Shown here: positions 10,564 to 23,074 of the stretch, piece after piece
Layout: each line of letters begins with the position of its first letter
Position numbering within the stretch: the first letter of the stretch is position 1
DNA from: a virus
Reading direction: 5' to 3' (one strand)
Length of the DNA stretch: 64,000 nucleotides
IMG/VR virus record: IMGVR_UViG_3300036772_000425
Coordinates: 74,924 to 138,923 of that record
Position numbers and translations under genes: made by a program
The notes under the pieces: generated by a model
Database searches by the model: none
What the model was told of the DNA's origin: nothing
The model's input: only the letters and a program-made list of their open reading frames with translations

Positions 10564-11001
10564 ATCGTACCAGCGGAGGGAGTCGAACCCTCAATCCCTT
10601 TCGGGCCCCCGATTTTGAGTCGGAGCTGTATTCCAGTTCCAAGCACGCTGGCATGCGTATTCTGCGCTCCTCAGTTCGAACCCTTGGCTCTCCGATCGTA
10701 CGTGTGTGACAATTCAACCCACAGTCGTGTTGGAGCTCGCACCCGATCATCTTCATCCGTGTCGATCGAGACGACAAGCACCAGCCCAAAGATCCTGAGA
10801 ACCCTGTTGATGGTGTTCAGCTGCATTTGAGTCCAACTCCCGCCCACGGTACGATAGTGCTTTCATCGATGACGATGGCACGTTTGCGGAAGTCCAGGAC
10901 CAGCTTTTCACCAGGTGATTCGAGTGTTCCTTCTCCGTTGAGGAACATTCGCTTCCGGTTGATCGCATCAACCTTCTCCTGGGTCAGCTTGCGTCGTTTC
11001 T

Positions 11002-11328
11002 TCATCCCAACCTCTTCGAGTCCTTTGTGGCCAGATCGTAGGATGATCCGATCAGGATGTACAGGTCGTTCGGAGAGAAACCCGGTACAGGTGTTCCGGT
11101 TGAGTGAAACACTTCCGCCATTTCATGGTGAACCGGGCACAGGCTGATGCCGTTGGAAGCTGCGTAGCCCCCATTCGGCATCAGGTTACGATCGGTGATG
11201 TGGTGAGCGTCCAGATCATCACGTTTGATGAAGCACACCCGACATGCGTTAGAATCACGCTTGAAAACAGCGTCCCTGAAGGCCTGCCGGATCCGCTTCT
11301 TCTCAGATGACATGGAGATGACTTCCAC
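11002..11328 (-). CDS. HNH endonuclease
   Basis: 108 aa; CRVC...DAHHI...N...LCPVHH, an HNH/His-Me finger pattern. Confidence 0.6.
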   Translation of the reverse strand: MEVISMSSEKKRIRQAFRDAVFKRDSNACRVCFIKRDDLDAHHITDRNLMPNGGYAASNGISLCPVHHEMAEVFHSTGTPVPGFSPNDLYILIGSSYDLATKDSKRLG

Positions 11329-11382
11329 CTGAGGCGGTGACGCCGCGCTTCAGCACGGCACCCCACCATTGGACGTTGAGGA

Positions 11383-11697
11383 TCATCGAACCCAGTGACC
11401 CCGCGCGAAGGCCCACCGACGGTGCACGTAGGTGTAGCGCGGGTGGATCCAACGGTACCCAGCGACGATGCGGACGTGGTACCCGGGTGACCAGACCCAA
11501 CGGTTCACAGACCAGCCCCAGTAACCACGTGACCAGATGTACCCGGGACGGACCACGAAGGTCTCCACGATGGGCGCAGGGGCCGCAACGTACTCGCACT
11601 CGGCGCTGTACACCTGCTCATCATCGGCCGAAGCATCCTTTGCAGGGAAGCAGGCAGAACACGCGATTGCAGCGGCAATGATCAGATTCTTCAGCAT
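11383..11697 (-). CDS. secreted protein with YxWGW/PGY repeats (signal peptide)
   Basis: Trimmed to internal ATG at 11697 (MLKNLIIAAAIACSA...); GGAGAGAG RBS; repeats RPGYIWSRGYWGW / WVWSPGYHV. Confidence 0.5.
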   Translation of the reverse strand: MLKNLIIAAAIACSACFPAKDASADDEQVYSAECEYVAAPAPIVETFVVRPGYIWSRGYWGWSVNRWVWSPGYHVRIVAGYRWIHPRYTYVHRRWAFARGHWVR

Positions 11698-11904
11698 TTT
11701 CTCTCTCCATACCTTGGGCGGGTGCCCAGGTGACATTGACATGAGGATGGTACTGCGTCCACGGTTGGGTGTTTCAGACCTTTTCTTCGTTGAAGTGTTA
11801 CGGTCTGTTACGGCAGTGTTACGGTCGGGTTGTAACACCCGGTGTAACACTTTACAGCACCATCACCCATGACATAGGTATCTACGATGTGGGAATTATG
11901 ACGG

Positions 11905-11976
11905 AGCAGTCCACGGGACTCGAACCCGTAACCCTCCGGTTGGGAACCGGGAGCGCTACCGTTGCGCCAGGACTGC
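11905..11976 (-). tRNA. tRNA-Gly(CCC)
   Basis: hand-folded cloverleaf: acceptor gcagtcc/ggactgc, T-arm acggg-actcgaa-cccgt, anticodon loop uucccaa. Confidence 0.7.
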
Positions 11977-12062
11977 AAATTCAAAAAGCGCTTTCACCTA
12001 CGGTCTCGGAGGTTCATGGGATCCCCACGATCTTACCGGACAGACAACGGTTACTGGCGCGG

Positions 12063-12134
12063 AGCGAGCGACGGGGTTCGAACCCGTGACAACCAGAATG
12101 GAAACCTGGTGTTCTACCACTGAACTACGCTCGC
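12063..12134 (-). tRNA. tRNA-Gly(UCC)
   Basis: cloverleaf: acceptor gcgagcg/cgctcgc, T-arm acggg-gttcgaa-cccgt, loop uuuccau. Confidence 0.65.
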
Positions 12135-12219
12135 AAAGCATGTTCACCTCCGGCTTGTCCGCTCCGCGACCCTGCGGTCGCATCACCGCCGACAAGCGCT
12201 TGGGTAGTTACTGATGCAG

Positions 12220-12291
12220 AGCAGGCGGCGGGATTCGAACCCGCGATTTCCTCCATGGCAAGGAGGTGCGATACCACTTCGCTACGCCTGC
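12220..12291 (-). tRNA. tRNA-Gly(GCC)
   Basis: cloverleaf: acceptor gcaggcg/cgcctgc, T-arm gcggg-attcgaa-cccgc, loop uugccau. Confidence 0.7.
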
Positions 12292-12314
12292 ATCATTTTT
12301 TGGTGTTGAGTCTG

Positions 12315-12399
12315 CGGTAGGGAGAGGATTCGAACCTCCGGGTCCTTGCGGACCACCGACTTTCCAGATCGGGCACTTAAACCGCTCGTGCACCCTTCC
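12315..12399 (-). tRNA. tRNA-Ser(GGA)-like, class II
   Basis: 85 nt with long variable arm; anticodon loop cuggaaa; acceptor has one mismatch. Confidence 0.5.
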
Positions 12400-12610
12400 G
12401 TTCATTTCATAGTTGGCGCGCCAGTTCGTACTGCTCCTGCTTCAGGATCTGAACTGCCGCCTCACCGATGTGACATGTGCTGCCTTCATTTTCCTCTGCC
12501 TCGCGCAGCATCGCCTTGATCCTCACCGCCCGTTCCCGAAGTTCCCGACCTGGGTTCGGTCGTTGGCTCAGGATCACATCATCCTTCATGCACAGGTAGC
12601 ACATTTCTTC

Positions 12611-12697
12611 GCGGAAGCGGCAGGATTCGAACCTGCGGGACCCTTTCGGGTCCGCCTGTTTTCGAGACAGGTGTCTTCAACCGCTCGACCACGCTTC
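12611..12697 (-). tRNA. tRNA-Ser(CGA), class II
   Basis: acceptor ggaagcg/cgcttcc; T-arm gcagg-attcgaa-cctgc; variable arm gggaccctttcgggtcc; loop cucgaaa. Confidence 0.7.
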
Positions 12698-12987
12698 CGT
12701 TCTCTCACCAGATCCTGTTCGGATCCCGTCCGATCAGACTGGACCACGACTGACCTACCGACATCATACCAACCGAACTTCCCGCAAACCCAGGGATCCT
12801 CGATCCCATGTAGGTCCCACAGACCGTGAAGGTGCACTTCGCACCGCATCCTGAGCAAACGTGCTCATAGACACCCGGGCTGTAGAACATGTGACTGGGA
12901 GGACTGTGATCCGGGCTCATGCACGGTCGATGACGACGCTCCCAATCGGGATCGGAGATCTTACGGGTCGGCATATTCAATCCTTTG

Positions 12988-13074
12988 CAGAGGAGGAGGG
13001 ATTCGAACCCCCGGATCCCTTTCAGGATCGCCTGTTTTCAAGACAGGAGCCATCAACCGCTCGGCCACCCCTCT
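12988..13074 (-). tRNA. tRNA-Ser(UGA), class II
   Basis: 87 nt; long variable arm; anticodon stem cctgt/acagg with loop cuugaaa. Confidence 0.7.
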
Positions 13075-13150
13075 ATGCTTTCTCAATTATGGGGTGCGAT
13101 GCGATGCTGTTCACCCCATACCTTCCCACCCGTAATTTTCTGGTGGGTCG

Positions 13151-13237
13151 CGGAAGCGGCAGGATTCGAACCTGCGGGACCCTTTCGGGTCCTTCCGGTT
13201 AGCAACCGGACGCCATAGGCCTCTCGGCCACGCTTCC
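13151..13237 (-). tRNA. tRNA-Ser(GCU), class II
   Basis: 87 nt; acceptor ggaagcg/cgcttcc; loop uugcuaa; long variable arm. Confidence 0.7.
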
Positions 13238-13584
13238 AAGATCTTCTACCTCATCAGGAGCCGGATCGACGACCTGATCCTCTGACTCATCGTCAGGTGG
13301 GTCTCCCGTGTCCCTGTAGTACGGGTCGCATACGTTTGGGACCCAAACTGAGCTTTCCGTTCCGTCAACCTCGACGGTCTGCACCGTTCCACCCTCACAA
13401 CCTGTCGGTCCTTCTTCGGGCGACCACAACAGGTCACCGTGTTCATGATGAACCAACGACGGTCCTTCATGCCCTGGAACCCGCGTGGCACCAGCAGAGC
13501 AACCCACCAACATGACCATCGTAGGGAACATGTACCGAAGCATGCTGGAACATACACCACGCGCTCCATGTTTCTACAAGGTCT

Positions 13585-13656
13585 GTCAGCGCAGTGGGAT
13601 TCGAACCCACGACATCCACTTCGTAAGGGTGGCGTCCTGCCTCTGGACGATGCGCT
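13585..13656 (-). tRNA. tRNA-Val(UAC)
   Basis: acceptor cagcgca/tgcgctg; T-arm gtggg-attcgaa-cccac; loop cuuacga. Confidence 0.7.
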
Positions 13657-13669
13657 GGCTGTTGTTGTT

Positions 13670-14065
13670 TCAGAGCAGGCGGAGCGTGCTGGTGATCGGA
13701 TCGATCTCCTCGGCGAGGCACGGTCCGAACGCGGCGCACGTTAGGGTTGGGACTCCGTGGAATTCAGTCCTCCCTGCGTCGACGATCGGGTAGACCTCCA
13801 CGTCTGCAAGTTTGGCACGGAGGATCAGCTGCTGCAGTTCCTCCTCGCTGTCGCACCCAGCAACGATCTTCGTGAAGGATCCGGAGAAGAGCCAGGTTGC
13901 CTCCTCGCGTGACAACTTCACCATGAGCTCATCGTCCCGATCCGCCTCATTGTTGTCGACCAGGAATTTCATGGCAGCGTGGGCGACCTGCGAGGCCAGC
14001 TTTCCCTTCCTCATGTTCAGGTCGCGACGGACGACGATAACCTGCTTGACATCGCTCATGATCAT
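13670..14065 (-). CDS. peptidyl-tRNA hydrolase, PTH2 family
   Basis: Trimmed to ATG at 14065 (MIMSDVKQVIVVRRDLNMRKGKLASQVAHAA...TLRLL); GGAGGT RBS 5 nt upstream; the longer ORF would overlap two tRNAs. Confidence 0.75.
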   Translation of the reverse strand: MIMSDVKQVIVVRRDLNMRKGKLASQVAHAAMKFLVDNNEADRDDELMVKLSREEATWLFSGSFTKIVAGCDSEEELQQLILRAKLADVEVYPIVDAGRTEFHGVPTLTCAAFGPCLAEEIDPITSTLRLL

Positions 14066-14085
14066 TACCTCCAAGGGCGATGCTG

Positions 14086-14157
14086 TGTCCCGCGTTGGGT
14101 TCGAACCAACGAGCTCCACCGTGTGAGGGTGGCGATCTACCGCTGATCTAGCGGGAC
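14086..14157 (-). tRNA. tRNA-Val(CAC)
   Basis: acceptor gtcccgc/gcgggac; T-arm gttgg-gttcgaa-ccaac; loop cucacac. Confidence 0.7.
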
Positions 14158-14192
14158 ATCGGGAGACATCCATCTGCCTCCCGTAGGTAGGA

Positions 14193-14462
14193 TCAGCGTG
14201 CCCGATTCTTGGGTTTGACGATCACTGCCGGCCTCATCTCCTCGATGAGGCCCTTGAGGTGAGCGCGCTGGCGCGCAGCACCAACACCCACCCCCAATCG
14301 AGCGTCCAGAGCAGCGAGCTGCTGTTCCGGGTTCAACCCTCGCCAGGCCACGAGACGTTCGGCGGCCTCCGTTTGCTTGATGGAGGTCTTGTCAGGGCGC
14401 GGACCGCCCTCGCTGTAGCGACGGCCCGAGCTCGACTTACGACCCATCTTCGGCATTTCCAT
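14193..14462 (-). CDS. hypothetical basic protein
   Basis: 89-aa ORF. Confidence 0.35.
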   Translation of the reverse strand: MEMPKMGRKSSSGRRYSEGGPRPDKTSIKQTEAAERLVAWRGLNPEQQLAALDARLGVGVGAARQRAHLKGLIEEMRPAVIVKPKNRAR

Positions 14463-14506
14463 GGTGTTTATGGCCTCTGCTCCCGTGGGAGCTTCACAGG
14501 TTCAAA

Positions 14507-15115
14507 TCACCAGTGATGATCGGGACACGATCCGGAACCGCACCCGCCATCACCGGTACCGCAGTTGCTTGTAAGACAATCGCATGTCTCCTTGCACACC
14601 TCGACGCATTGCAGGTACACGTGGCAGGTGCTTACGTGATCCTTCCCATCGGTGTGTTGGCATGCCGTGTAGCATCCGTCCACACATTCCTCGTGGTCAA
14701 CATACCCATCGCACGTCAACCCTCCGCAGACAGTGCCGCCTCCTGATCCGCTCGACCCTGCGGACGATGTCGAGGTCGTTGAACCGTCAGACGCCGAGCT
14801 TGAGACGTTCGATCCACCTGAACCGGTGACAGTTGGGTTCGACCCACCGGCAGCCCCTGCACCTGATACCGTCGTTGAGCTGGTGACATCGCACCCACCA
14901 TGGCCACCCGCACCAACGGAGGACGTGCTAGATGGGCTGGAAACGCTCGATCCTTGCCCGCCGGCGCCGCCGGAACCACCGGCGCCACCGGTGCCAGTCC
15001 AGGGCGGGCAATCACAACCACCCGTTCCCGATGATTCTGGGAATTCGACCAACTGCGATCCACCGCACGCAGCGAGGACCAGCGCGCTCAGGGCGCACAG
15101 TTTCGTGAACTTCAC
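14507..15115 (-). CDS. putative lipoprotein, Cys- and Gly/Ser/Thr-rich
   Basis: N-terminus MKFTKLCALSALVLAACGGS reads as a lipoprotein signal with lipobox; multiple Cys pairs. Confidence 0.5.
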   Translation of the reverse strand: MKFTKLCALSALVLAACGGSQLVEFPESSGTGGCDCPPWTGTGGAGGSGGAGGQGSSVSSPSSTSSVGAGGHGGCDVTSSTTVSGAGAAGGSNPTVTGSGGSNVSSSASDGSTTSTSSAGSSGSGGGTVCGGLTCDGYVDHEECVDGCYTACQHTDGKDHVSTCHVYLQCVEVCKETCDCLTSNCGTGDGGCGSGSCPDHHW

Positions 15116-16131
15116 TTCGAACCTTCTTTCCTGATGACGAACCTGACGTTGAACTCGACCCTGCGGTTCTCGACCCTACCCGCCTTCTTCCCGTTGTCAG
15201 CGATGGGGCGTGAGTAGCTGAACCCACGAGCTGTCATCCGGTCCGCGGGCAGGCCGGCCGCCTTCAGGCAGTCCAGCACCGCCTGAGCACGCTTCTCAGA
15301 GAGCCGCAGGTTGTGCGGTTCCGGAGGGCCATCGTTGGAGGCATGGCCTTCAACCACCAGCGACCAACCCTTGTGGGCCTTGAGAACATCGATCACGTGT
15401 GCGATGTGCGGCACGGCCGCGGGCAGGATCACCGCTGAATCAGGGCCGAATTGCACCTTCTCGTTCAGCTCGAAGGTCTCCGGTTCCACCACCCGCACGA
15501 CGGGTGCCGGCAGCTCCCTGGGCGGAAGGATGGGTTCGATCAGGGCGGGTTCACGCACTGCCTTCAGGGGTGAGGGTCCGATCTCCAGGCTGAGGCCGAA
15601 GATCAGAACGTGAGCGTCGCTGCCGTCGATCCCAGCTCGAGAGACCTGAGCGATGTCAAGGTACCTGACGTAGGGTCCGAACCACACGTTCCTCCGCTCG
15701 TTGAGCGGCACCGAGGCGCCGAGCGCTGTCGTCAGGGCAACCCGATCGAGCGGTCCGGTACGAGCGTACTGGACGCTGCCGTCGATCCAAGGAGAGACTG
15801 CGGTCAGGCCCGTCCCTGTGTTCGATTCATCATGAGGTCGCTTGAACCTGACAACGGGACCGACAGACCACATCGATCCTGCGTTGATGCCCTGGATCTG
15901 CGATGGCAGCGACAGGAACGATCCGAACGCTCCGACGTCGAAGAACGGCACGACCCCGATCAACGGCTTGAGCGCCAGGGTACCGCCGGTGTCGAACCTG
16001 TCGGTCTGCGGCGTCGCCAACGGAACAGCCACCCCACCTTCGACGGTCAGGGTCGGTGGGTCAGCCGCAAACGCAGCGACAGGCAGCAGGAACGCCGCCA
16101 TCAGGCTCAGGCTTGTCAGGGATGCTTTCAT
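15112..16131 (-). CDS. OmpA-family protein (signal peptide + OmpA C-terminal peptidoglycan-binding domain)
   Basis: Signal MKASLTSLSLMAAFLLPVAAFA; C-terminal NLRLSEKRAQAVLDCL...RVEFNV matches the OmpA_C pattern. Confidence 0.65.
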   Translation of the reverse strand: MKASLTSLSLMAAFLLPVAAFAADPPTLTVEGGVAVPLATPQTDRFDTGGTLALKPLIGVVPFFDVGAFGSFLSLPSQIQGINAGSMWSVGPVVRFKRPHDESNTGTGLTAVSPWIDGSVQYARTGPLDRVALTTALGASVPLNERRNVWFGPYVRYLDIAQVSRAGIDGSDAHVLIFGLSLEIGPSPLKAVREPALIEPILPPRELPAPVVRVVEPETFELNEKVQFGPDSAVILPAAVPHIAHVIDVLKAHKGWSLVVEGHASNDGPPEPHNLRLSEKRAQAVLDCLKAAGLPADRMTARGFSYSRPIADNGKKAGRVENRRVEFNVRFVIRKEGSK

Positions 16132-16208
16132 GTGTTGTGTTTCTCCCGGGATCCAACGGATCCGCGAGGTGAATCCTACAACACACGGTGCACCGTAAAC
16201 CTCACCAG

Positions 16209-16285
16209 CACCCCCGGCAGGGTTCGAACCTGCATGTGTCCGGTTACGGTTCCCACTGCTTAGAAGGCAGAGCCGATACGGAGGT
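16209..16285 (-). ncRNA. tRNA-like element (Arg-type acceptor and T-arm; anticodon arm not foldable)
   Basis: acceptor acccccg/cggaggt and T-arm gcagg-gttcgaa-cctgc nearly identical to tRNA-Arg(ACG) at 17688, but no canonical D or anticodon arm. Confidence 0.35.
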
Positions 16286-16424
16286 GTGACCTGGGTGTGA
16301 GCCTGCTTTCACCTTCCTGGTTCCGCCCAAGGCGGGTGCAACCCACCGCAGGGATTTTCACCCTTATGACAGTTACTCACCGTCAGGGACGCCCACCTCA
16401 CGATGGCTCCGTCCTGACGACCCG

Positions 16425-16498
16425 TCTTCCCGGCGCGATTCGAACGCGCGATCTTACGCTTCGGAGGCGTACGTTCTATCCAGCTGAACTACGGAAAG
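16425..16498 (-). tRNA. tRNA-Arg(CCG)
   Basis: acceptor 7 bp with one G-U; T-arm gcgcg-attcgaa-cgcgc; loop cuccgaa. Confidence 0.7.
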
Positions 16499-16512
16499 AT
16501 TTCAACACTGAG

Positions 16513-16586
16513 CGTCTCTGGGAGGATTCGAACCTCCGACCACCGCGTTAGGAATGCGGTGCTCTATCCAGCTGAGCTACAGAGAC
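16513..16586 (-). tRNA. tRNA-Arg(CCU)
   Basis: acceptor gtctctg/cagagac; T-arm ggagg-attcgaa-cctcc; loop uuccuaa. Confidence 0.7.
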
Positions 16587-16720
16587 AAGCGCACTTTCAC
16601 CTACGGTCCCGGTGGGATTTGCACCCACACCCTCGAAATCATACCTCGATGTGCTCCGTTACACCACGGAACAACTCTTGGCCGGCTGTCCGGCAGTTAC
16701 TCATGTGAGCTGAAGGTACA

Positions 16721-17194
16721 TCAGACGTCCTCGGCCTTACACCGTTCCCTGGTCTCCATGAGCAATTTTCCGAGCCAGTTCTGGCCTGCACCGCGGCACA
16801 CGCCCCAGAAGCGATCGTTCCAGCTGTTTCCCTCGATCAGTTCAGCTTCTTCGGTCGCCAGCAGCATCGCCCTGAGCAACGGGTTCTTGAACTTCTCACT
16901 GAGACACATTCGCATCACCTCCACCTTTCGAGCGTCCCAATCGGGAGCAAGCTGGCAGGATTGACCGAGACGCTTTGCGACACCTGGGCTTCGAGCCTCC
17001 CGGATCATCTTCTGCGTGACGGGATCTGAGGACTTTGCAGCCTGGTACGCATGCTCCACGCTCGGGTACCGAACACCGTCGAGCCAGATCGATGCCTCGT
17101 GGAAGTTGCTGAGGAACCCGAACGTTCCCGTGAAGGAATCGATCACGGGTTCAGCGCATGGCAGTTCAGGTTGCCTCGTGCTGTCCATGTTCAT
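16721..17194 (-). CDS. NADAR (YbiA-like, DUF1768) domain protein
   Basis: 157 aa; FGFLSNFHEASIWLDGVRYPSVEHAYQAAK...RFWGV matches the NADAR/YbiA signature. Confidence 0.7.
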   Translation of the reverse strand: MNMDSTRQPELPCAEPVIDSFTGTFGFLSNFHEASIWLDGVRYPSVEHAYQAAKSSDPVTQKMIREARSPGVAKRLGQSCQLAPDWDARKVEVMRMCLSEKFKNPLLRAMLLATEEAELIEGNSWNDRFWGVCRGAGQNWLGKLLMETRERCKAEDV

Positions 17195-17685
17195 GCACCT
17201 GTCGATGTTGAATGGTGTACCACGTATGGGATGCAGGCAACGATGACCCTGCGGACCATGTCAGCAGTTCCCTTGCTGGACTCCAGGTTGTCGTGGAAGA
17301 CCAGACATTCATCGAGCGGTTCATCTTGCCTGTTCTCGGTGTCAATCATCAGCTGGTTCCTGATCGGGCCAGCGGCCCGCCCGTGCTTGCTCCAATCGGC
17401 TGGGTACCCCCGGACGATGAATCCTAGCGTCTCAGCGACGACGGCACAGGTGTTGTCGGCTCCCTTGCATGCACCGTGCACCAGGATGGTGCCTGGTCGG
17501 TACACCTTGAGCGCCTCGACGATCGACTGCACGTCAGACCAGTTTCGATCACCCGTGATCAGGATCTTCCTGACCGACCGGTCCTCGGGCAGCCTCCTAC
17601 GCTCCTCGGGGTCGCGCCGATCGTTGTGCCGGCGATCGGGCTTGACGCGCCTGATCGTGCCTCCACGTCGAGCTTCATTGTCCAT
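17191..17685 (-). CDS. SLOG/DprA-like Rossmann-fold nucleotide-binding protein (DUF2493-like)
   Basis: Trimmed to ATG at 17685 to avoid the tRNA; motif ILITGDRNWSD...VHGACKGADN...AAGPIRNQLM; ATGA overlap with the NADAR gene. Confidence 0.45.
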   Translation of the reverse strand: MDNEARRGGTIRRVKPDRRHNDRRDPEERRRLPEDRSVRKILITGDRNWSDVQSIVEALKVYRPGTILVHGACKGADNTCAVVAETLGFIVRGYPADWSKHGRAAGPIRNQLMIDTENRQDEPLDECLVFHDNLESSKGTADMVRRVIVACIPYVVHHSTSTGA

Positions 17686-17687
17686 GG

Positions 17688-17761
17688 TGCCCCCGGCAGG
17701 GTTCGAACCTGCGACCTTCTGTTTCGTAGACAGACGTGGTATCCTGCTCCACCACGGAGGC
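17688..17761 (-). tRNA. tRNA-Arg(ACG)
   Basis: acceptor gcccccg/cggaggc; T-arm gcagg-gttcgaa-cctgc; loop cuacgaa. Confidence 0.7.
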
Positions 17762-17770
17762 GACGTTCCT

Positions 17771-18169
17771 TCACCAACCGAAACGGTCCTGGCGCTCGCG
17801 ATCATTCTGCATGATCAGGGACAGGTTGCCGGCTTCTTCTGCTTCTCGCTGGCGTGAGTTCTCCTCACGCGTGCGACGTTCGTGTTCGTCAGACCGCGCG
17901 AGCTCCTTTGCGTAATTCTCTTGCTGGCGAGCCCGAGCGAGCCCAGCGGCGTAACCACGATTGTACGCAACCTCTTCGATCTCTGCCCTGGTCTCTGCCT
18001 CCGTCTTTGTCCGGACAGGTTCGACGGTTTCATCGATGATTTTTTGCCATCGGTCCACGGAGGGTTCGTCCACGTGGCGTTCGTTCCTCATCTGGATGTT
18101 TTCAAGAGCTGTTTTGATCTTTTGTTTCTTTGGAGCGGTCATCAGCATCACCAGTTCCCATCGTACCAT
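17771..18169 (-). CDS. hypothetical coiled-coil/charged protein (start uncertain)
   Basis: 132-aa ORF, R/E-rich. Confidence 0.3.
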   Translation of the reverse strand: MVRWELVMLMTAPKKQKIKTALENIQMRNERHVDEPSVDRWQKIIDETVEPVRTKTEAETRAEIEEVAYNRGYAAGLARARQQENYAKELARSDEHERRTREENSRQREAEEAGNLSLIMQNDRERQDRFGW

Positions 18170-18817
18170 CGGGACAGGCGAAACTTCATGCCCGTCCGAT
18201 GGTCAGTTACCAGGTCGTCCTGTGTCCTGTACGTTCGAACCTTGTCACCGCGTTGACCTGAACCCACCTGGGTCTTCCGTTCTGATTCACGAAGCCTGTT
18301 CATCCTTTCGGATTCAACGTCATGGATCCTGGCTGCAAGGACCTTCAGGGCGGTGGCCCTGTTCTGGTGCTGCGACCTTTCGTTGTCTATCCTGACCTGG
18401 ATTCCTGTGGGGCGATGAACAGCGATCACGCACGACTCTGTCTTGTTCCTGTTCTGCCCGCCCGACCCGGTGCCGCGTGCTGTCGTCACGACAACATCCT
18501 TCTGATCCAGGTGAAAACCAGCAGACATCTCAGGATCCATCACCGCGACGGTGACCGTCGATGTTTGGACCCTACCACGCTTCTCGTTGGGAGGGACCCG
18601 CTGCCATCGGTGACCGCCTGCCTCGTTAGCGTACAGTGACCTGCATCCGGGCCCCTCTACCGTGAAAACGACCTGACCGGGCCTTTGATCGATCAGCTGG
18701 ACGTCAAAGACCCCTCTGGGCCGCAACGTTGCAGTACACGCGAAGCTGATCCTTGACAAGGAGCTTCGCATCGTCGCCGCCCTCGGCGGCCCGGATCTCG
18801 ATGATGATCGTTTCCAT
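18148..18817 (-). CDS. class-I release factor RF2-like (domains 2-4, GGQ motif) with +1 programmed frameshift at CUU UGA C
   Basis: Frame 0 from ATG 18817 (METIIIEIRAAEGGDDAKLL...AAQRGL) stops at UGA 18706-18704 within cagAGGGGuCUUUGAC; the +1 frame continues DVQLIDQRPGQV...SGGQNRNKTESCVIAVHRPTGIQV; the joined product aligns contiguously with RF2 domain 2. Confidence 0.65.
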
Positions 18818-18819
18818 TT

Positions 18820-19281
18820 TCACTCCATGAAATCGTAGTAGTGCTCTTCGAGCAGGGTCCGGTACACCCTCATGTTTGGATGGTACCGACTGAAGAAGTA
18901 CCTATCGTCACCCGTTAGAATTTTCGAGAGGGCTGCGGCAACCCCTGGTGACCTGCTCAGGCCAGCATCGCAGTGCACGATGAGCTCTTCCGCATGCGGA
19001 TGTTGCTTGATCGCGTCGAGCACCTGCCGTGCCTGCACCGGGCTGAAGCACCTGGGTTCGTAGTCCCTGACGGCGTCCGGGTGCCGGGACGAGATCTCGA
19101 TCAGGGCCCGATCGTCGAAATCGTGGAACTGCAGCTGCACCAGGGCACACGTTGCCGTGTTGGTCCTCAGCTGAGCCTCTGGTTCACCCGGTGTGCTGAT
19201 GGAGACGATGAGATGCGGATGCGACGGCATCTCGGCACGTTCAGCCTCTGTTCGGCAGAGGACAGTGAACCTGGTGATCAT
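18820..19281 (-). CDS. Cys-based (CX5R) phosphatase, dual-specificity/PTP-like
   Basis: 153 aa; active-site signature VHCDAGLSRSPG. Confidence 0.55.
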   Translation of the reverse strand: MITRFTVLCRTEAERAEMPSHPHLIVSISTPGEPEAQLRTNTATCALVQLQFHDFDDRALIEISSRHPDAVRDYEPRCFSPVQARQVLDAIKQHPHAEELIVHCDAGLSRSPGVAAALSKILTGDDRYFFSRYHPNMRVYRTLLEEHYYDFME

Positions 19282-19586
19282 GGCTCAACGTTCGTCAGGA
19301 TGCCGAAAACGTTCTTCCGGGTGCACCAACCGTTGATGTGACCGTGGTTGTTGCTGATCTGGTAGCGTTCATCGCTACCGATCGCAGTGACCTTGTGCAG
19401 CATCTGCCGACCGTTCACCTTGCACAGGACCGCATCGCCCACCCTGATCTCCCGATCTCCGATCGGCTCCACGGTCACCAGCTGCCCGCTCTGCACGATC
19501 GGGACCATGCTGCCTCCGTGCGGCCTGAACCTCACGGTCCGGCCTGAGAGCAGTTCCTGCACGTGATTTCGATTTCCGTCAGACAT
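19278..19586 (-). CDS. S24 (LexA/UmuD-like) serine peptidase domain protein
   Basis: Trimmed to ATG 19586 (MSDGNRNH...); RFRPHGGSMVP...GDAVLCKVNGRQMLHKV matches the S24 Ser-Lys dyad pattern. Confidence 0.6.
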   Translation of the reverse strand: MSDGNRNHVQELLSGRTVRFRPHGGSMVPIVQSGQLVTVEPIGDREIRVGDAVLCKVNGRQMLHKVTAIGSDERYQISNNHGHINGWCTRKNVFGILTNVEP

Positions 19587-19591
19587 ATGGG

Positions 19592-19664
19592 TACCGGGAG
19601 AGGGACTTGAACCCTCGCTAACCCTGCTTATGAGACAGGTGCTCTGCCGCTGAGCTATCCCGGC
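19592..19664 (-). tRNA. tRNA-Met(CAU) (elongator, initiator or Ile2 not distinguished)
   Basis: T-arm gaggg-acttgaa-ccctc; anticodon stem ccugu/gcagg; loop cucauaa. Confidence 0.7.
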
Positions 19665-19668
19665 ATGA

Positions 19669-19923
19669 TCATGAGAACCAACTACGAACCCTGGTCGCAA
19701 TGCGCCACACGAGCTCCCTGAAGGGGCCCGGATGCATGTCGAATGAGGGACACTCGACGAACTTCCCCCAAGGACGCAGGTCCAGCCCGCGCTCGTAACC
19801 GAGGGCACATCCGCATGCTGCGAAGTAGCTGCCTGGGCAGTTTACGCAACGATGCCACTGGAAATCTTCCGTCTCCATGGGACGGATGAACCAGCCCAGG
19901 ATCATGTACCACACTCTTTTCAT
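19669..19923 (-). CDS. small Cys-rich hypothetical protein
   Basis: 84-aa ORF between two tRNAs; CVNCPGS...CGC. Confidence 0.3.
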   Translation of the reverse strand: MKRVWYMILGWFIRPMETEDFQWHRCVNCPGSYFAACGCALGYERGLDLRPWGKFVECPSFDMHPGPFRELVWRIATRVRSWFS

Positions 19924-20002
19924 GTGCCAAAGGTGGGACTCGAACCCACACGCTCACGCGCTCCATTCTAAACGGAGTGTGTCTGCCATTTCACCACTCT
20001 GG
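19924..20002 (-). tRNA. tRNA-Leu(UAG), class II
   Basis: 80 nt; acceptor with one G-U; T-arm gtggg-actcgaa-cccac; loop uuuagaa; long D-loop and variable region. Confidence 0.65.
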
Positions 20003-20016
20003 CGCTGTCTGATCCT

Positions 20017-20511
20017 CTACGGACGTGTTCGGGCCACTAGCTCCGATGATGATTGCACCTTGTCATTCCCGCCGACCCCGAAAACCACGCTGCAACCGAT
20101 CCTCGTGCATGCCTCAAATTCGGGCACGACGGCTGAGCTCGATCGATCACCGCCCTTCGCAAAGACGTTCGGCAGCAGTGCCTCGATCGCGCCCGTCACG
20201 AACTGGCCACCATCGTCCCATGTGACCACGTAATCCACGCCCCTGATCGCTGAGACCAGCTCGAGCCTTTCCTCGACCTTCATGAAGGAGTAACCCTTCT
20301 TGCGCGCCAGGAAACCATCACCGTTGACGATCACGATCAGGATGCCGCGTTCTCCCTTCAAACGGGCGGCCTCCTGGATGCAGCGAAGGTGTCCCACGTG
20401 GATGGGATCGAAACCACCCGAGGTTGTGACCACCGTCAGGTCGGGATCTGATTCCCGCTTCGATCGGACGATCCCTGCAGCACGTTCGATGCTCACGATC
20501 TCTGCGTTCAT
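20017..20511 (-). CDS. cytidylyltransferase-fold nucleotidyltransferase (HxGH motif)
   Basis: Trimmed to ATG 20511; VVTTSGGFDPIHVGHLRCIQEAARL matches the (H/T)xGH class-I nucleotidyltransferase motif (TagD/RfaE-II/NMNAT-like). Confidence 0.6.
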   Translation of the reverse strand: MNAEIVSIERAAGIVRSKRESDPDLTVVTTSGGFDPIHVGHLRCIQEAARLKGERGILIVIVNGDGFLARKKGYSFMKVEERLELVSAIRGVDYVVTWDDGGQFVTGAIEALLPNVFAKGGDRSSSAVVPEFEACTRIGCSVVFGVGGNDKVQSSSELVARTRP

Positions 20512-20512
20512 G

Positions 20513-20586
20513 TGCCCCCGGTAGGATTCGAACCTACAACCTCGCGCTTCGAAGGCGCTTGCTCTGATCCGTTGAGCTACGGGGGC
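20513..20586 (-). tRNA. tRNA-Arg(UCG) (tentative)
   Basis: acceptor gcccccg/cgggggc perfect; T-arm gtagg-attcgaa-cctac; anticodon stem gcgc/gcgc with loop cuucgaa. Confidence 0.6.
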
Positions 20587-20939
20587 GTGGAAATGAGGCG
20601 GAGATCTAAGCGGAGTTCTGTCGAGGACGATCATTCATCTTGGGTGCACGTCACCGTGCACCTCTAGCAACAACCCGCATGCTCGGGCGAACAACCCTCG
20701 AGCGCATGCTGTTTGTCTTGCTCCGGGAGGGGCCCCATACCGTCCGCATTGCTGCGTCCGTGGTGGGCTCTTACCCCACCGTTTCAACCTTGCCTGATCC
20801 CTTGCGGGCCATCGGCGGTCTGTTTTCTGTTGAGCCTTCCGACACCTTACGGTGCCCAGTGATTACCTGGTACCCTGTTCTAGGGAGCTCCGACTTTCCT
20901 CTACGCTCTGCAGCGCAGCGATCGTCTTTCCCTGCCTCG

Positions 20940-21023
20940 TGCCATCGGGGGGAGTCGAACCCCCACGCCCTTGCGAGCATCGGCTTCTGAGGCCGACGTG
21001 ACTGCCAGTTCCACCACAATGGC
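20940..21023 (-). tRNA. tRNA-Leu(CAG), class II
   Basis: 84 nt; T-arm ggggg-agtcgaa-ccccc; anticodon stem tcggc/gccga; loop cucagaa. Confidence 0.7.
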
Positions 21024-21030
21024 ATTGTGA

Positions 21031-21531
21031 TCAATCGTGATCACGTCGTGATTGAGAAATCTTAGCTCTCGATTCTTCTGTGTGATGTCGACCTTTGAAT
21101 CCATGAGTGGGTGTCAGAGCATGACAGTTTGGACACAAGTACCGAAGGTTGGTAGGATCAGGATTTGAACTGTTACCATCGATGTGATCGATTTCAAGCT
21201 CAAGAGGTTTTCCATTCCACTCACCGGTGTTTCCGCACTTCACACATCGATATTCACGATCAAGTTCTTGAAGAACTCGACGCAATATCGTCGTACGAAC
21301 TCCGCGTTTAATCGTATGGATGTTTTGGGCGGTGATCTTTTCGGGTCCCCCACGGTGACGCTCACCAGAATTTGCTGAACGCCCCAAGAAGTGAGTTACA
21401 TCGAGCTGAAGTGCTTCAATTTCACGCTTGACAGCATGCCAAGCAGAACCAGAAGTCATTCCCATACGTAGAACAACTTCACGATAACTCTTTGAGGAAG
21501 CCACAACAACGATCAATTTCTCTCGATCCAT
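21031..21531 (-). CDS. HNH homing endonuclease
   Basis: Trimmed to ATG 21531 (MDREKL...); CVKCG...ELEIDHIDGNSSNPDPTNLRYLCPNCH. Confidence 0.65.
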   Translation of the reverse strand: MDREKLIVVVASSKSYREVVLRMGMTSGSAWHAVKREIEALQLDVTHFLGRSANSGERHRGGPEKITAQNIHTIKRGVRTTILRRVLQELDREYRCVKCGNTGEWNGKPLELEIDHIDGNSSNPDPTNLRYLCPNCHALTPTHGFKGRHHTEESRAKISQSRRDHD

Positions 21532-21573
21532 GAGGCAATGGTACTGTTCTTTTAGTACTTGTATTTGCCTAAG

Positions 21574-21659
21574 TGCCATCGAGGGGATTCGAACCCCTAC
21601 ACCCATTACGGGTACAACGTTCTCAACGTTGCGCGCCTGCCTAATTTCGCCACGATGGC
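21574..21659 (-). tRNA. tRNA-Leu(GAG), class II
   Basis: 86 nt; acceptor gccatcg/cgatggc; T-arm agggg-attcgaa-cccct; loop uugagaa. Confidence 0.7.
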
Positions 21660-21664
21660 ATGGG

Positions 21665-21737
21665 TACCCCCAACGGGATTCGAACCCGTATACCCAGAGT
21701 GAAGGTCTGGTGTCCTGAACCGTTAGACGATGGGGGC
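21665..21737 (-). tRNA. tRNA-Glu(UUC) (tentative; C33 in my fold)
   Basis: acceptor with G1-U72; T-arm acggg-attcgaa-cccgt; loop ccuucac. Confidence 0.6.
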
Positions 21738-21894
21738 ATTCACCTGGAGGGTGCCTTACGGGCCTCCCGCTTGTCGAAGTTGACCTTGTAGACGATCATC
21801 CCAGTGACCAGGACCACAAAACCGGTGGCAAGCAGCAGGTTGTGCCTCATACCTGCATCATACCAACAGCCGTGGTCCCAGTACACTGATACGG

Positions 21895-21967
21895 AGCTGG
21901 TGAGGAGAGTCGAACTCCTAACCGCCTGCTTACAAGGCAGGTGCTCTGCCAATTGAGCTACACCAGC
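21895..21967 (-). tRNA. tRNA-Thr(UGU)
   Basis: acceptor gctggtg/caccagc; T-arm aggag-agtcgaa-ctcct; loop cuuguaa. Confidence 0.7.
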
Positions 21968-22065
21968 GTTTGACCTTTCACCTTCGCTCTGGGACTCGCA
22001 CCCAGACCTTCCCAGTTGGCTGCCGGGACTTCATCTCTCCGAATTCGCTTGACAGTTACTCGGTG

Positions 22066-22139
22066 TGTCCCCGGAGGGATTCGAACCCCCAGATCTTCCC
22101 GCTTTAAGGGGGACGCGTTTGCCCTTTCGCCACGAGGAC
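22066..22139 (-). tRNA. tRNA, class-I length, anticodon arm ambiguous (reads UAA with a 4-bp stem)
   Basis: acceptor 7 bp with one G-U; T-arm gaggg-attcgaa-ccccc; anticodon stem only 4 bp. Confidence 0.45.
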
Positions 22140-22143
22140 ATCG

Positions 22144-22215
22144 AGCGAGCAGCGGGGATCGAACCCGCGACGAACAGCTTGGAAGGCTGTCACTCTACCG
22201 CTGAGCTATGCTCGC
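22144..22215 (-). tRNA. tRNA-Gly(UCC), second copy
   Basis: acceptor gcgagca/tgctcgc; T-arm gcggg-gatcgaa-cccgc; loop cuuccaa. Confidence 0.65.
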
Positions 22216-22304
22216 ATTGGTGCGAAGTACGAGGACACCCCTTCGCGTGGATGCTATTGTTCCGGCACCAGAGCAAGGTTGGTTGGGTGCTTCACCGGCC
22301 CTCG

Positions 22305-22375
22305 AGCAGACGACCGGAATCGAACCGGTGTGTTCAGGATGGCGTCCTGATGCCTAACCATTCGGCCACGCCTGC
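22305..22375 (-). tRNA. tRNA (anticodon GCC read, Gly?; C33 in my fold)
   Basis: acceptor 7 bp with one G-U; T-arm accgg-aatcgaa-ccggt; loop acgccau. Confidence 0.5.
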
Positions 22376-22486
22376 GTATTGTCTTTCACCTGCACCGCGC
22401 GGGACTCCCACCCGCTGTTTAGATCAAACCACCTTGCGGTGTGTCCAGACCGGCTGGTCATTTCGACCCTCGAAGTTACTCGACGG

Positions 22487-22558
22487 AGCTGGCGGCGGGA
22501 ATCGAACCCGCGTGATCCTCCGTACCGAGGAGGTGCGTGACCACTACGCTACACCAGC
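22487..22558 (-). tRNA. tRNA-Thr(GGU) (tentative)
   Basis: acceptor with G-U; T-arm gcggg-aatcgaa-cccgc; anticodon stem ccucc/ggagg; loop ucgguac. Confidence 0.6.
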
Positions 22559-22570
22559 ATGTTCGCGCGT

Positions 22571-22670
22571 TCAACTACTGGGATTCGAACCCACATGCCC
22601 TTTCAGGCACCCGGGTTTGAGCCAGGTGCGTCTGCCTGTTCCGCCATCGGATCTCTCCTTGACGAGTTGA
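22571..22670 (-). ncRNA. elongated tRNA-like element (~100 nt) with Leu(CAA)-type anticodon arm
   Basis: acceptor tcaacta/gagttga 6 of 7; canonical T-arm; variable hairpin tgcc-ctttca-ggca; anticodon arm cccgg-gtttgag-ccagg; about 17 nt extra before the 5' acceptor with no canonical D-arm. Confidence 0.4.
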
Positions 22671-22685
22671 CGTTTACTTGCGCGG

Positions 22686-22757
22686 AGTAGAGGGTGGGAG
22701 TCGAACCCACTATCACCTGTTTTGCAGACAGGGTCCTTGCCGTCAGGAATCCACTAC
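22686..22757 (-). tRNA. tRNA-Cys(GCA)
   Basis: T-arm gtggg-agtcgaa-cccac; anticodon stem ccugu/acagg; loop cugcaaa; acceptor has one U-U mismatch. Confidence 0.7.
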
Positions 22758-22924
22758 ATCTTCGGGATTGTCACGGTCCTTCATGGGATCATCCAACCCC
22801 CGATCGTCGCCATCGTCCCGGCTGTTCGGCCCATCTGGCAACCGAAGTTGGTCAACCAGGGCCTCACGGATAATTCTGCGAAGCTCTTGAACAGAGATAC
22901 CGATGCTCACGTCTCTAATTATGG

Positions 22925-22997
22925 TCCCTCACGGTCGGATTTGAACCGACGACGCCCGGGTTTCAGCCGGGTGCTCTACCAACTGAGCTACGGAGGG
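22925..22997 (-). tRNA. tRNA-Phe(GAA) with a bulged nucleotide in the acceptor stem
   Basis: T-arm gtcgg-atttgaa-ccgac; anticodon stem cccgg/ccggg; loop cugaaac; D-arm gctc/gagc; 3' acceptor strand carries one extra nucleotide. Confidence 0.6.
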
Positions 22998-23000
22998 ATG

Positions 23001-23072
23001 GGTGGTCGACGGGATTCGAACCCGCGTAAGCACGGTCACAACGTGCCCCCTGAACCGCTCGGGTACGACCAC
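23001..23072 (-). tRNA. tRNA-His(GUG)
   Basis: acceptor gtggtcg/cgaccac; anticodon stem gcacg/cgtgc; loop uugugac. Confidence 0.7.
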
Positions 23073-23074
23073 AG

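What the first reader, a model, noticed from the sequence alone, without database searches (positions are those of the whole stretch)
16721..17194. NADAR (YbiA-like) domain gene, translationally coupled to a SLOG-like gene, next to tRNA-Arg: candidate anti-DarT/ADP-ribosylation reversal factor
The ORF carries the NADAR signature FLSNF...YPSVEHAYQAAK...WGV. NADAR proteins hydrolyse ADP-ribose from guanine in DNA (reversing DarT-family toxins) and occur in phages as counter-defence. It overlaps by ATGA a SLOG/DprA-like nucleotide-binding gene, suggesting a two-gene module.
Basis: established knowledge. Interest (0 to 1): 0.6.

Follow-up and report, generated by a model that had tools for sequence, protein, structure and literature searches.

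The report
Phage NADAR hydrolase with SLOG partner
A giant soil phage carries, inside its large block of tRNA genes, an intact gene for a NADAR enzyme that strips ADP-ribose off nucleic-acid bases, next to a nucleotide-binding SLOG gene; this is a known kind of phage counter-defence gene, so the finding is correct but mostly ordinary.

Summary
ORF 16721..17194 (-) is a NADAR-domain protein (Pfam 94.8 bits against a cut-off of 35.1). Glu47, Lys54, Glu121, Asp127 and Trp130 are all present. The AlphaFold model matches E. coli YbiA and the ADP-ribose-bound Phytophthora NADAR. The upstream gene (17191..17685) is a YAcAr-family SLOG protein.

The window is part of a ~340 kb uncultivated huge phage. 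It holds 56+ tRNA genes, an RNase P RNA, a release-factor-like gene, PTH2 and three RNA ligases.

The NADAR is the Glu-type core enzyme. It is not the DarT1-linked type and not the T4 gp30.3 type. It is 46% identical to AdfN of phage Bas32, which was shown experimentally to neutralise DarT1, and 43% identical to YbiA, which does not. So "ADP-ribosylation reversal factor" is well supported, but "anti-DarT" specifically is only one option.

SLOG-NADAR linkage recurs in several phage contexts and was already described by Iyer et al. (2021, 2022). I found no description in the papers I searched of two further points: this NADAR clade sits upstream of PTH2 in 46 of 80 viral loci, and the whole block lies in a translation and RNA-repair island. 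This hints at an RNA target.

Verdict: new member of a known kind, with modest interest.

The parts
16721..17194 (-). NADAR (YbiA-like core, Glu-type) ADP-ribosyl N-glycohydrolase gene. The most likely start is the ATG at 17188 (155 aa).
   Evidence: Profile matches: Pfam PF08719 94.8 bits, TIGR02464 88.6 bits. E47, H48, K54, E121 and D127 are invariant in 29 relatives. The AF2 model has pLDDT 88. Foldseek gives YbiA TM 0.78 and 8bau TM 0.71. The Shine-Dalgarno AGGTG lies 7 nt before the ATG at 17188.
17191..17685 (-). SLOG-superfamily gene (YAcAr / YspA-cpYpsA-related, formerly DUF2493), 164 aa. It has a conserved Arg-rich N-terminal extension of 38 aa.
   Evidence: Pfam PF10686 45.2 bits; PHROG 289 82.6 bits. 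It is identical to P0121, which lies on a 340,433-bp contig. The alignment shows GDR, GAxxGAD and AGPIRN motifs. The AF2 model has pLDDT 87 for the core; the best PDB match is DprA, and it is marginal.
17685..17761 (-). tRNA-Arg(acg). Its 3' end abuts the SLOG start codon.
   Evidence: ARAGORN and Rfam 62.6 bits. The same juxtaposition is seen in L002, L004 and L006.
16604..16673 (-). tRNA-like element 48 nt downstream of the NADAR stop codon.
   Evidence: Rfam tRNA 41.2 bits against a gathering score of 29. ARAGORN does not call it.
16424..16586 (-). tRNA-Arg(cct) and tRNA-Arg(ccg), downstream of NADAR.
   Evidence: ARAGORN; Rfam 65.5 and 62.8 bits.
13670..14059 (-). PTH2 peptidyl-tRNA hydrolase, the conserved downstream synteny partner of this NADAR clade.
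   Evidence: Pfam PF01981 97.2 bits. A PTH2 homologue lies downstream of NADAR within 3 kb in 46 of 80 viral loci and directly adjacent in 26. Pfam confirms PTH2 in L032 and L066.
18148..18771 (-). Truncated class-I release-factor-like gene (GGQ motif), a conserved upstream neighbour in this phage clade.
   Evidence: Pfam RF-1 97.6 bits plus a PCRF C-terminal part. NCBIfam prfA, prfB and prfH all score below their cut-offs. It is present in L001, L002, L006, L009-L011 and L020.
18820..19281 (-). Cys-phosphatase-like gene (HCDAGLSRS motif), a conserved neighbour in the clade.
   Evidence: Weak Pfam DSPc match, 18.5 bits. Homologues lie in the same position in L001, L002, L004-L006, L010, L011, L013, L016 and L018-L020.

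Best explanation
This is an intact, expressed-looking gene for a small core NADAR enzyme of a ~340 kb uncultivated huge phage.

Shown:
- It has the YbiA-like fold and the full set of ADP-ribose-binding and catalytic residues: Glu47, Lys54, Trp86, Glu121, Asp127 and Trp130.
- It belongs to a clade found almost only on viral contigs.
- It sits in a co-directional run of tRNA genes and translation/RNA-repair genes.
- In several different phage backgrounds it is preceded by a YAcAr SLOG gene, and in many it is followed by PTH2.

Inferred: early in infection the enzyme hydrolyses the N-glycosidic bond between ADP-ribose and a nucleobase. The base is guanine, and cytosine is likely too because the enzyme is Glu-type. 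The substrate is phage nucleic acid that a host ADP-ribosyltransferase defence has modified. The hydrolysis restores the template or RNA and releases free ADP-ribose. This is the same chemistry and role as the AdfN counter-defence proteins.

The SLOG partner is inferred to bind or further process an adenine-ribosyl or ADP-ribose-type ligand. It may act as a sensor or regulator, or as a second glycosidase on the released product.

Undecided: whether the physiological substrate is DNA (DarT1-type defence) or RNA/tRNA (suggested by the neighbourhood).
For: Family membership and active site:
- establish membership and the active-site residues.
- Structure: pLDDT 88; TM 0.78 to YbiA and 0.71 to ADPr-bound Pn NADAR.

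Similarity to a tested protein:
- 46% identity (117 bits) to bas32_0066, the only NADAR gene I found in phage Bas32.
- AdfN^Bas32 neutralises DarT1 and restores plaquing of three phages on DarTG1 hosts (PMC11825919 section 11).

Biochemistry of the family:
- All NADAR families remove G-ADPr from DNA and RNA in vitro.
- Glu-type enzymes also remove C-ADPr (PMC11125620; PMC11833690; PMC12945103).

Viral distribution:
- 475 viral-contig matches.
- Only one match among 185,579 species genomes with the clade motifs.
- Relatives lie on 325-370 kb contigs.

No cognate toxin in the window:
- No ART, Macro, Nudix or KptA domain among about 60 window ORFs, so this is an orphan 'antitoxin-like' enzyme and not a toxin-antitoxin pair.

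SLOG linkage:
- SLOG lies within 1.5 kb upstream in 14 of 80 viral loci.
- These include loci with no tRNA array and no PTH2: L082, L086 and L100.
Against: - No experiment has been done on this protein.
- It is almost as similar to E. coli YbiA (43%), which hydrolyses riboflavin-pathway intermediates and does not protect against DarT1 in cells.
- It passes the curated TIGR02464 cut-off for that activity.
- It lacks the basic N-terminal extension that DarT1-linked NADARs use for ssDNA binding (TM 0.45 to 8bat).
- Iyer et al. argue from context that phage NADAR and SLOG proteins mainly target soluble ADP-ribose derivatives, not macromolecular adducts (PMC9503650).
- The host and its defence repertoire are unknown.
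Confidence: 0.55

Rival explanations
1. SLOG and NADAR together degrade soluble NAD-derived immune signals or toxins, such as cADPR isomers, ADPr-1''-phosphate or ADPr>P. SLOG binds or cleaves the adenine-ribose bond, and NADAR cleaves the other N-glycosidic bond. The effect would be to blunt TIR/Thoeris-type or RES-type host defences.
For: Iyer et al. 2021 and 2022 predict this from recurrent SLOG-Macro/NADAR fusions and neighbourhoods in DNA viruses. SLOG-NADAR adjacency recurs in unrelated contexts here: L022, L050, L054, L082, L086 and L100. The SLOG ligand-binding motifs are invariant.
Against: None of the papers I read reports a NADAR cleaving a soluble cyclic ADPr signal. Every tested NADAR acts on base-linked ADPr. 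Only 14 of 80 related NADAR loci have a SLOG gene, so NADAR works without it in most phages.
Confidence: 0.18
2. The enzyme is part of a translation-apparatus protection and repair island, and its substrate is RNA. It would remove ADP-ribose from bases of tRNA, rRNA or mRNA modified by RNA-targeting ARTs, or clear ADP-ribose by-products of NAD-dependent RNA repair. It would work alongside PTH2, the RF-like factor and the RNA ligases.
For: PTH2 lies downstream of NADAR in 46 of 80 viral loci and immediately adjacent in 26, always in the same order and on the same strand. In the reciprocal search, 26 of 77 PTH2 loci have NADAR upstream. The window holds 56+ tRNAs, an RNase P RNA, an RF-like gene, PTH2 and three RNA-ligase genes. 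NADARs de-ADP-ribosylate guanosine and cytidine in RNA, and YbiA prefers RNA.
Against: The linkage is concentrated among the closest PTH2 relatives, so it may be inherited synteny and not functional coupling. The closest tested homologue, AdfN^Bas32, sits among nucleotide-metabolism genes and acts on DNA adducts. No KptA/Tpt1 or 2H enzyme is present in the window. NADARs do not act on phosphate-end RNA ADPr.
Confidence: 0.2
3. It is a housekeeping YbiA-type N-glycosidase that destroys reactive riboflavin-biosynthesis intermediates. It would be an auxiliary metabolic gene with no role in conflict.
For: It passes the TIGR02464 equivalog-domain cut-off, 88.6 against 73.7 bits. It is 43% identical to YbiA, and YbiA is the best structural match.
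Against: No riboflavin genes (RibA, RibD) were seen in the window. The clade is essentially virus-only. It is linked to SLOG and PTH2, not to metabolic genes. The equally similar Bas32 protein is a proven counter-defence.
Confidence: 0.05

Closest known systems
AdfN^Bas32 (bas32_0066, Escherichia phage IrisVonRoten, T5-like), an orphan NADAR anti-DarTG1 factor (Johannesman et al. 2025, PMC11825919)
   Same: Both are phage-encoded, stand-alone core NADARs of about 150 aa with no N-terminal extension. Both are Glu-type (LIEGN). They share 46% identity over 140 aa. Neither has a cognate ART.
   Different: The Bas32 gene lies among nucleotide-metabolism genes (thymidylate synthase, RNase H), with no SLOG, PTH2 or tRNA array nearby. 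The function of the window protein is untested.
E. coli YbiA (PDB 2B3W), a riboflavin-intermediate N-glycosidase that also removes G/C-ADPr in vitro
   Same: YbiA is the best structural match (TM 0.78). The two share 43% identity, the same Glu-type catalytic set, and both pass TIGR02464.
   Different: YbiA is chromosomal, in a LexA-controlled operon, and does not protect against DarT1 in cells. The window protein belongs to a virus-only clade.
DarG1 / DarT1-associated NADAR antitoxins (E. coli C7, G. lovleyi 8BAT; Schuller et al. 2023)
   Same: Same superfamily and the same chemistry, hydrolysis of guanine-N2-ADP-ribose. Glu and Lys equivalent to E88 and K95 are present.
   Different: DarG1 proteins are about 230 aa with a basic N-terminal DNA-binding extension, have Asp at the signature position, and are encoded next to DarT1. 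The window protein has none of these features (no ART in the window).
T4 gp30.3 / AdfN^T4 (His-type 'phage NADAR' family, Pfam Phage_30_3)
   Same: Both are phage-encoded NADAR counter-defence candidates with the core domain only.
   Different: The Pfam Phage_30_3 match is only 21.1 bits against a cut-off of 36. The signature residue is Glu, not His.
Viral SLOG (YpsA-like/YAcAr) with NADAR/Macro neighbourhoods and fusions (Iyer et al. 2021, 2022)
   Same: A YAcAr SLOG gene lies directly upstream of a NADAR gene in a jumbo phage, which is exactly the association they describe.
   Different: Here the two are separate genes embedded in a tRNA array. The SLOG has a clade-specific Arg-rich N-terminal extension and a start codon that abuts a tRNA. 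These papers do not mention PTH2 linkage (no 'Pth' occurrence in PMC9503650).

Membership tests
NADAR superfamily (Pfam PF08719 / DUF1768 / COG3236) | Significant match to the family profile above the curated threshold | tested here: met
   94.8 bits against a cut-off of 35.1, covering profile positions 10-161 of 163. PDB phmmer: YbiA E 2.8e-22.
NADAR superfamily (Pfam PF08719 / DUF1768 / COG3236) | YbiA-like alpha-helical core fold | tested here: met
   AF2 model with pLDDT 88 and pTM 0.81. Foldseek: 2b3w TM 0.78, 8bau TM 0.71, both at probability 1.00.
NADAR superfamily (Pfam PF08719 / DUF1768 / COG3236) | Catalytic and ADPr-binding residues equivalent to Pn NADAR E43, K50, W89, E125, D130 and W133 | tested here: met
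   E47, K54, W86, E121, D127 and W130 align. R93 aligns to K90 and R79 to Q78. E47, K54, E121 and D127 are invariant in 29 relatives.
NADAR superfamily (Pfam PF08719 / DUF1768 / COG3236) | ADP-ribosyl-base N-glycohydrolase activity | not testable with these tools
   This needs an in vitro assay on G-ADPr or C-ADPr oligonucleotides.
YbiA-type (Glu) NADAR subfamily | Glutamate at the signature position (Pn E125), as opposed to Asp (DarG1) or His (T4-type) | tested here: met
   E121 lies in LIEGN. The criterion comes from PMC11543638 and PMC12945103.
YbiA-type (Glu) NADAR subfamily | Passes NCBIfam TIGR02464 (riboflavin-intermediate N-glycosidase domain) | tested here: met
   88.6 bits against a cut-off of 73.7.
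DarG1 (DarT1-associated NADAR antitoxin) | Encoded next to a DarT1 ADP-ribosyltransferase | tested here: not met
   No ART domain was found among about 60 window ORFs scanned. The neighbours are SLOG and tRNAs.
DarG1 (DarT1-associated NADAR antitoxin) | N-terminal basic beta-beta-alpha extension forming a ssDNA groove, with Asp at the signature position | tested here: not met
   The protein is 155-157 aa, the core only. TM to 8bat is only 0.45. The signature residue is Glu, not Asp.
AdfN (phage orphan NADAR anti-DarTG1 factors) | Phage-encoded stand-alone NADAR homologous to a tested AdfN | tested here: met
   46% identity and E 2e-39 to the NADAR of Bas32. The gene sits on a huge-phage contig.
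AdfN (phage orphan NADAR anti-DarTG1 factors) | Neutralises DarT1 toxicity and restores phage growth on DarTG1 hosts | not testable with these tools
   This needs co-expression with DarT1 or plaque assays.
T4 gp30.3-type phage NADAR (Pfam PF08010) | Match above the curated threshold, and His at the signature position | tested here: not met
   21.1 bits against a cut-off of 36. The signature residue is Glu.
YAcAr / YspA-cpYpsA-related SLOG family (Pfam PF10686), for the upstream gene | Profile match above the threshold, with a Rossmannoid SLOG core | tested here: met
   45.2 bits against a cut-off of 28.2; PHROG 289 82.6 bits. The AF2 core has pLDDT above 95 with alternating beta/alpha elements. 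The best PDB match is DprA, a SLOG protein, but it is weak: E 1.5e-3, TM 0.40.
YAcAr / YspA-cpYpsA-related SLOG family (Pfam PF10686), for the upstream gene | Binds or processes a nucleotide or ADPr-derived ligand | not testable with these tools
   Only predicted in the literature.

The most novel reading that the evidence does not exclude
The conserved order SLOG -> NADAR -> PTH2, embedded with an RF-like factor, RNA ligases, RNase P RNA and 56+ tRNAs, would mark a phage 'translation-apparatus protection island'. In it, this NADAR clade removes ADP-ribose from bases of tRNA, rRNA or mRNA. That would make it a counter-defence against RNA-targeting ADP-ribosyltransferases and not against DarT1, and would define a functional NADAR-PTH2 partnership that I did not find described.
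Probability: 0.2. Interest if true: 0.6.

Novelty: new member of a known kind. Interest (0 to 1): 0.3.

Why it matters
Phage NADARs are a recently proven class of enzymatic counter-defence that reverses DNA ADP-ribosylation by DarT1. This gene extends that class to an uncultivated clade of ~340 kb soil phages.

It also shows the NADAR in a setting where its conserved partners are tRNA and translation factors (PTH2, an RF-like protein, RNA ligases, RNase P RNA), not DNA-metabolism genes. If the substrate turns out to be RNA, that would point to host defences that ADP-ribosylate the translation apparatus and to a matching phage repair kit.

As it stands, the gene itself is an expected member of a known family.

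Tried and rejected
Rejected classifications:
- DarG1-type antitoxin. There is no ART neighbour, no N-terminal extension, the signature residue is Glu and not Asp, and TM to 8bat is 0.45.
- T4 gp30.3-type NADAR. The Pfam match is 21 bits against a cut-off of 36.
- The 'NADAR family anti-phage protein' model NF053876. It scores 70.8 bits against a cut-off of 240.

Checks that gave nothing useful:
- PADLOC gave only a weak candidate match, PDC-M42C at 33 bits, and nothing for SLOG.
- A scan of about 60 window ORFs for ART, Macro, Nudix, KptA or 2H partners found none.
- The RF-like gene does not reach the cut-off for prfH, prfA, prfB or ArfB.
- The 170-206 aa gene that separates SLOG and NADAR in relatives has no Pfam match. 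It is absent from the window.
- The SLOG fold search found no close solved structure.
- The genome-contig scan returned a single Planctomycetota MAG contig, so no host was identified.
- No isolated phage is a close relative. The best SLOG hit is 42% identical, and the NADAR hits are at or below 50%.

Literature that could not be reached or was wasted:
- de Souza & Aravind 2012 and Aravind et al. 2015 are not held.
- The supplements of PMC11825919 are not held.
- One literature search was wasted on the surname 'Nadar'.

Full report
**1. The observation**

The ORF at 16721..17194 on the minus strand is real and is 157 aa long.
- Pfam NADAR: 94.8 bits against a curated cut-off of 35.1.
- PHROG 1017: 139.6 bits.
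- NCBIfam TIGR02464: 88.6 bits against 73.7.
- Solved-structure sequences: YbiA (2b3w) E 2.8e-22 and the ADP-ribose-bound Phytophthora NADAR (8bau) E 8.8e-8.
- 1194 homologues were found in the metagenome protein collection. The best is identical except that it starts at the second Met (P0001).

The upstream ORF is a SLOG protein of the YAcAr family: Pfam PF10686, 45.2 against 28.2 bits, and PHROG 289, 82.6 bits. Its true start is the ATG at 17685. This gives 164 aa, identical to JGI protein P0121 on a 340,433-bp contig. The longer 204-aa ORF merely reads through tRNA-Arg(acg).

The ATGA overlap is literally present. However, an AGGTG Shine-Dalgarno lies 7 nt before the second ATG at 17188, and relatives align to that Met. 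The likely junction is therefore TGA-AC-ATG. The spacing is tight either way.

tRNA-Arg genes flank the pair. Rfam adds a tRNA-like element at 16604..16673.

**2. What the window is**

All 56 ARAGORN tRNAs lie on the minus strand between 10.5 and 46 kb. Rfam also finds a bacterial class-A RNase P RNA at 20591..20938, 255 bits.

Protein genes interspersed with the tRNAs include:
- PTH2, a truncated release-factor-like protein with GGQ, an OmpA-domain protein and a Cys-phosphatase-like protein;
- three RNA-ligase-family proteins, an ATP-dependent DNA ligase, a sigma-70-like factor, an AAA+ ATPase with a DUF2201 VWA/metallopeptidase partner, and several HNH endonucleases.

Close relatives of both the NADAR and the SLOG lie on 325-370 kb contigs from soil and other metagenomes, with the same gene order. 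The clade motifs hit 475 viral contigs. They hit only one contig among 185,579 species genomes. I conclude that the window is part of an uncultivated huge phage. No isolated phage is a close relative.

**3. The NADAR protein**

I aligned the protein to the ADP-ribose-bound Phytophthora structure, whose contacts are listed by Schuller et al. (PMC11543638). This places E47, K54, W86, K90, E121, D127 and W130 at the positions of E43, K50, W89, R93, E125, D130 and W133. Only R79 is unmatched, aligning to Q78. E47, H48, K54, E121 and D127 are invariant in 29 relatives that are 57-75% identical.

The AlphaFold model (pLDDT 88, pTM 0.81) gives these Foldseek matches:
- YbiA: TM 0.78;
- 8bau: TM 0.71;
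- the DarT1-linked Geobacter NADAR 8bat: only TM 0.45.

The signature residue is Glu. This places the protein with the 'NADAR' and 'YbiA' families. The DarG1 family has Asp there and the T4-type family has His. In the 2026 study, only the Glu-type enzymes removed ADP-ribose from cytidine as well as guanosine, on both DNA and RNA.

**4. Comparison with tested proteins**

The T5-like phage NADAR gene is 98% identical in DNA to bas32_0066 of Escherichia phage IrisVonRoten. The locus tags show that this phage is BASEL phage Bas32. The window protein is 46% identical to it, at 117 bits.

Johannesman et al. showed that AdfN^Bas32 neutralises DarT1 without other phage factors. It restores growth of RB69, T5 and Bas25 on DarTG1 hosts but has no effect on DarTG2.

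The window protein is also 43% identical to E. coli YbiA, at 88.6 bits. YbiA removes G-ADPr in vitro but does not rescue DarT1 toxicity in cells. Sequence alone therefore cannot decide the in vivo specificity.

**5. Gene linkage**

I built HMMs from my alignments and scanned six-frame ORFs of 80 viral loci retrieved with the NADAR alignment.
- A SLOG gene lies upstream within 1.5 kb in 14 loci, and directly adjacent in 7.
- A PTH2 homologue lies downstream within 3 kb in 46 loci, and directly adjacent in 26.
- The order and strand are always SLOG -> NADAR -> PTH2.

Pfam confirmed PTH2 in two of the adjacent cases. In one of them a PP-loop (TilS-like) gene follows.

SLOG-NADAR adjacency also occurs where there is no tRNA array and no PTH2 (L082, L086), and on the opposite strand from PTH2 (L100). 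This argues for a genuine, though facultative, two-gene association.

In the reciprocal search, 28 of 77 PTH2 loci hold a NADAR. In 26 of them it lies upstream on the same strand, and these are concentrated among the closest PTH2 relatives. The PTH2 link could therefore be clade-level synteny.

In the closest relatives (L002, L004, L006), a tRNA-Arg(gcg) and a 170-206 aa gene with no Pfam match lie between SLOG and NADAR. The direct abutment in this window is a derived, deleted state.

No ART, Macro, Nudix, KptA or 2H domain was found among about 60 window ORFs. The NADAR is therefore an orphan and not half of a toxin-antitoxin pair.

**6. What is already known**

Iyer et al. 2021 (PMC7824862) and 2022 (PMC9503650) already report YAcAr/YpsA-like SLOG domains in jumbo phages. 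They describe frequent fusion or neighbourhood with NADAR and Macro domains, and predict that these proteins process soluble ADP-ribose derivatives or RNA-repair by-products. They discuss PTH2 separately, as a ribosome-rescue factor. They do not link it to NADAR: 'Pth' does not occur in the 2022 paper.

The anti-DarT role of phage NADARs has been experimental knowledge since 2025.

**7. Judgement**

The gene is a bona fide NADAR hydrolase. Most likely it is a phage counter-defence that removes base-linked ADP-ribose from nucleic acid (confidence about 0.55). The target, DNA or RNA, is left open.

The rivals are:
- joint SLOG/NADAR degradation of soluble ADPr signals (0.18);
- an RNA/tRNA-directed role within the translation-repair island (0.20, which is also the most novel reading);
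- a housekeeping riboflavin-damage role (0.05).

The identities and the general biochemical role are right. The specific anti-DarT label is only one of several options, and the 'module' is broader than two genes. The finding is a new member of a known kind, and interest is modest (0.3).

Noticed in passing
window 20591..20938 (-); also L002 6544-6885, L004 6270-6660, L011 4343-4697, L012 5141-5494, L020 3985-4342: A full-length bacterial class-A RNase P RNA (Rfam RF00010, 224-277 bits against a gathering score of 100) sits inside the phage tRNA array. In the window, L002, L011 and L020 it lies between tRNA-Leu(cag) and tRNA-Arg(tcg). It is present in 5 of 7 related huge-phage loci examined. 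One search for papers combining 'RNase P RNA' with 'phage-encoded' or 'tRNA array' listed none whose title or abstract describes a phage-encoded RNase P RNA.
   Followed up: partly
window 17683..17688; L002 8804-8809; L004 8622-8627; L006 8888-8893: The SLOG start codon lies 2-3 nt after the discriminator base of a tRNA-Arg in four phages, which leaves no room for a Shine-Dalgarno. The 38-aa Arg-rich N-terminus it encodes is conserved at protein level. This suggests tRNA-punctuated processing that yields a leaderless or nearly leaderless mRNA.
   Followed up: partly
window 10567..46022 (-): The array holds 56 ARAGORN tRNA genes, plus at least one more found by Rfam, all on one strand and covering all 20 amino acids. 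Two have 4-base anticodons or 8-nt anticodon loops: 44505..44581 'caat' and 45531..45602 'agaa'. These may be frameshift-suppressor-like or degenerate tRNAs.
   Followed up: no
L024, L027, L035, L036, L042, L047 and others (PTH2 ORFs listed): Many PTH2 homologues that sit directly after NADAR in phages without tRNA arrays have lost the DAGxT motif. The window's PTH2 and canonical Pth2 keep it. These variants may be inactive or may have a changed activity.
   Followed up: no
window 18148..18771 (-): A 207-aa release-factor-like protein has the GGQ domain and only the C-terminal part of PCRF. It scores below the curated cut-offs of prfA, prfB, prfH and ArfB. It is conserved upstream of SLOG in related phages and may be a phage ribosome-rescue or termination factor.
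   Followed up: partly
window 7117..8382, 9305..10006, 28927..29793 (-): The window holds three separate RNA-ligase-family genes (Rnl1-like, RNA_ligase and Rnl2-like). It also holds an ATP-dependent DNA ligase (32945..34294) and an HD-domain protein with a weak match to a tRNA nucleotidyltransferase PHROG (53302..54258). This is a dense RNA-repair complement.
   Followed up: no
L002 4377-4449; L023 11904-11989: Related phages carry a tRNA with anticodon UCA that ARAGORN calls tRNA-SeC, and a tRNA that Rfam matches to tRNA-Sec. These may be UGA-suppressor tRNAs.
   Followed up: no
window 54001..64000: G+C rises from about 55-62% to 65-70% over the last 10 kb, and gene orientation becomes mixed. 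This may be a different genome module or an assembly junction.
   Followed up: no
L005 1..6200 versus L004: A Logan contig joins the same SLOG-NADAR-OmpA block to ordinary bacterial genes (ribosomal protein L28, an amino-acid permease, an aminotransferase). The 324-kb ENA contig shows phage context at the same place. This may be a chimeric assembly, or a hint to the host.
   Followed up: no
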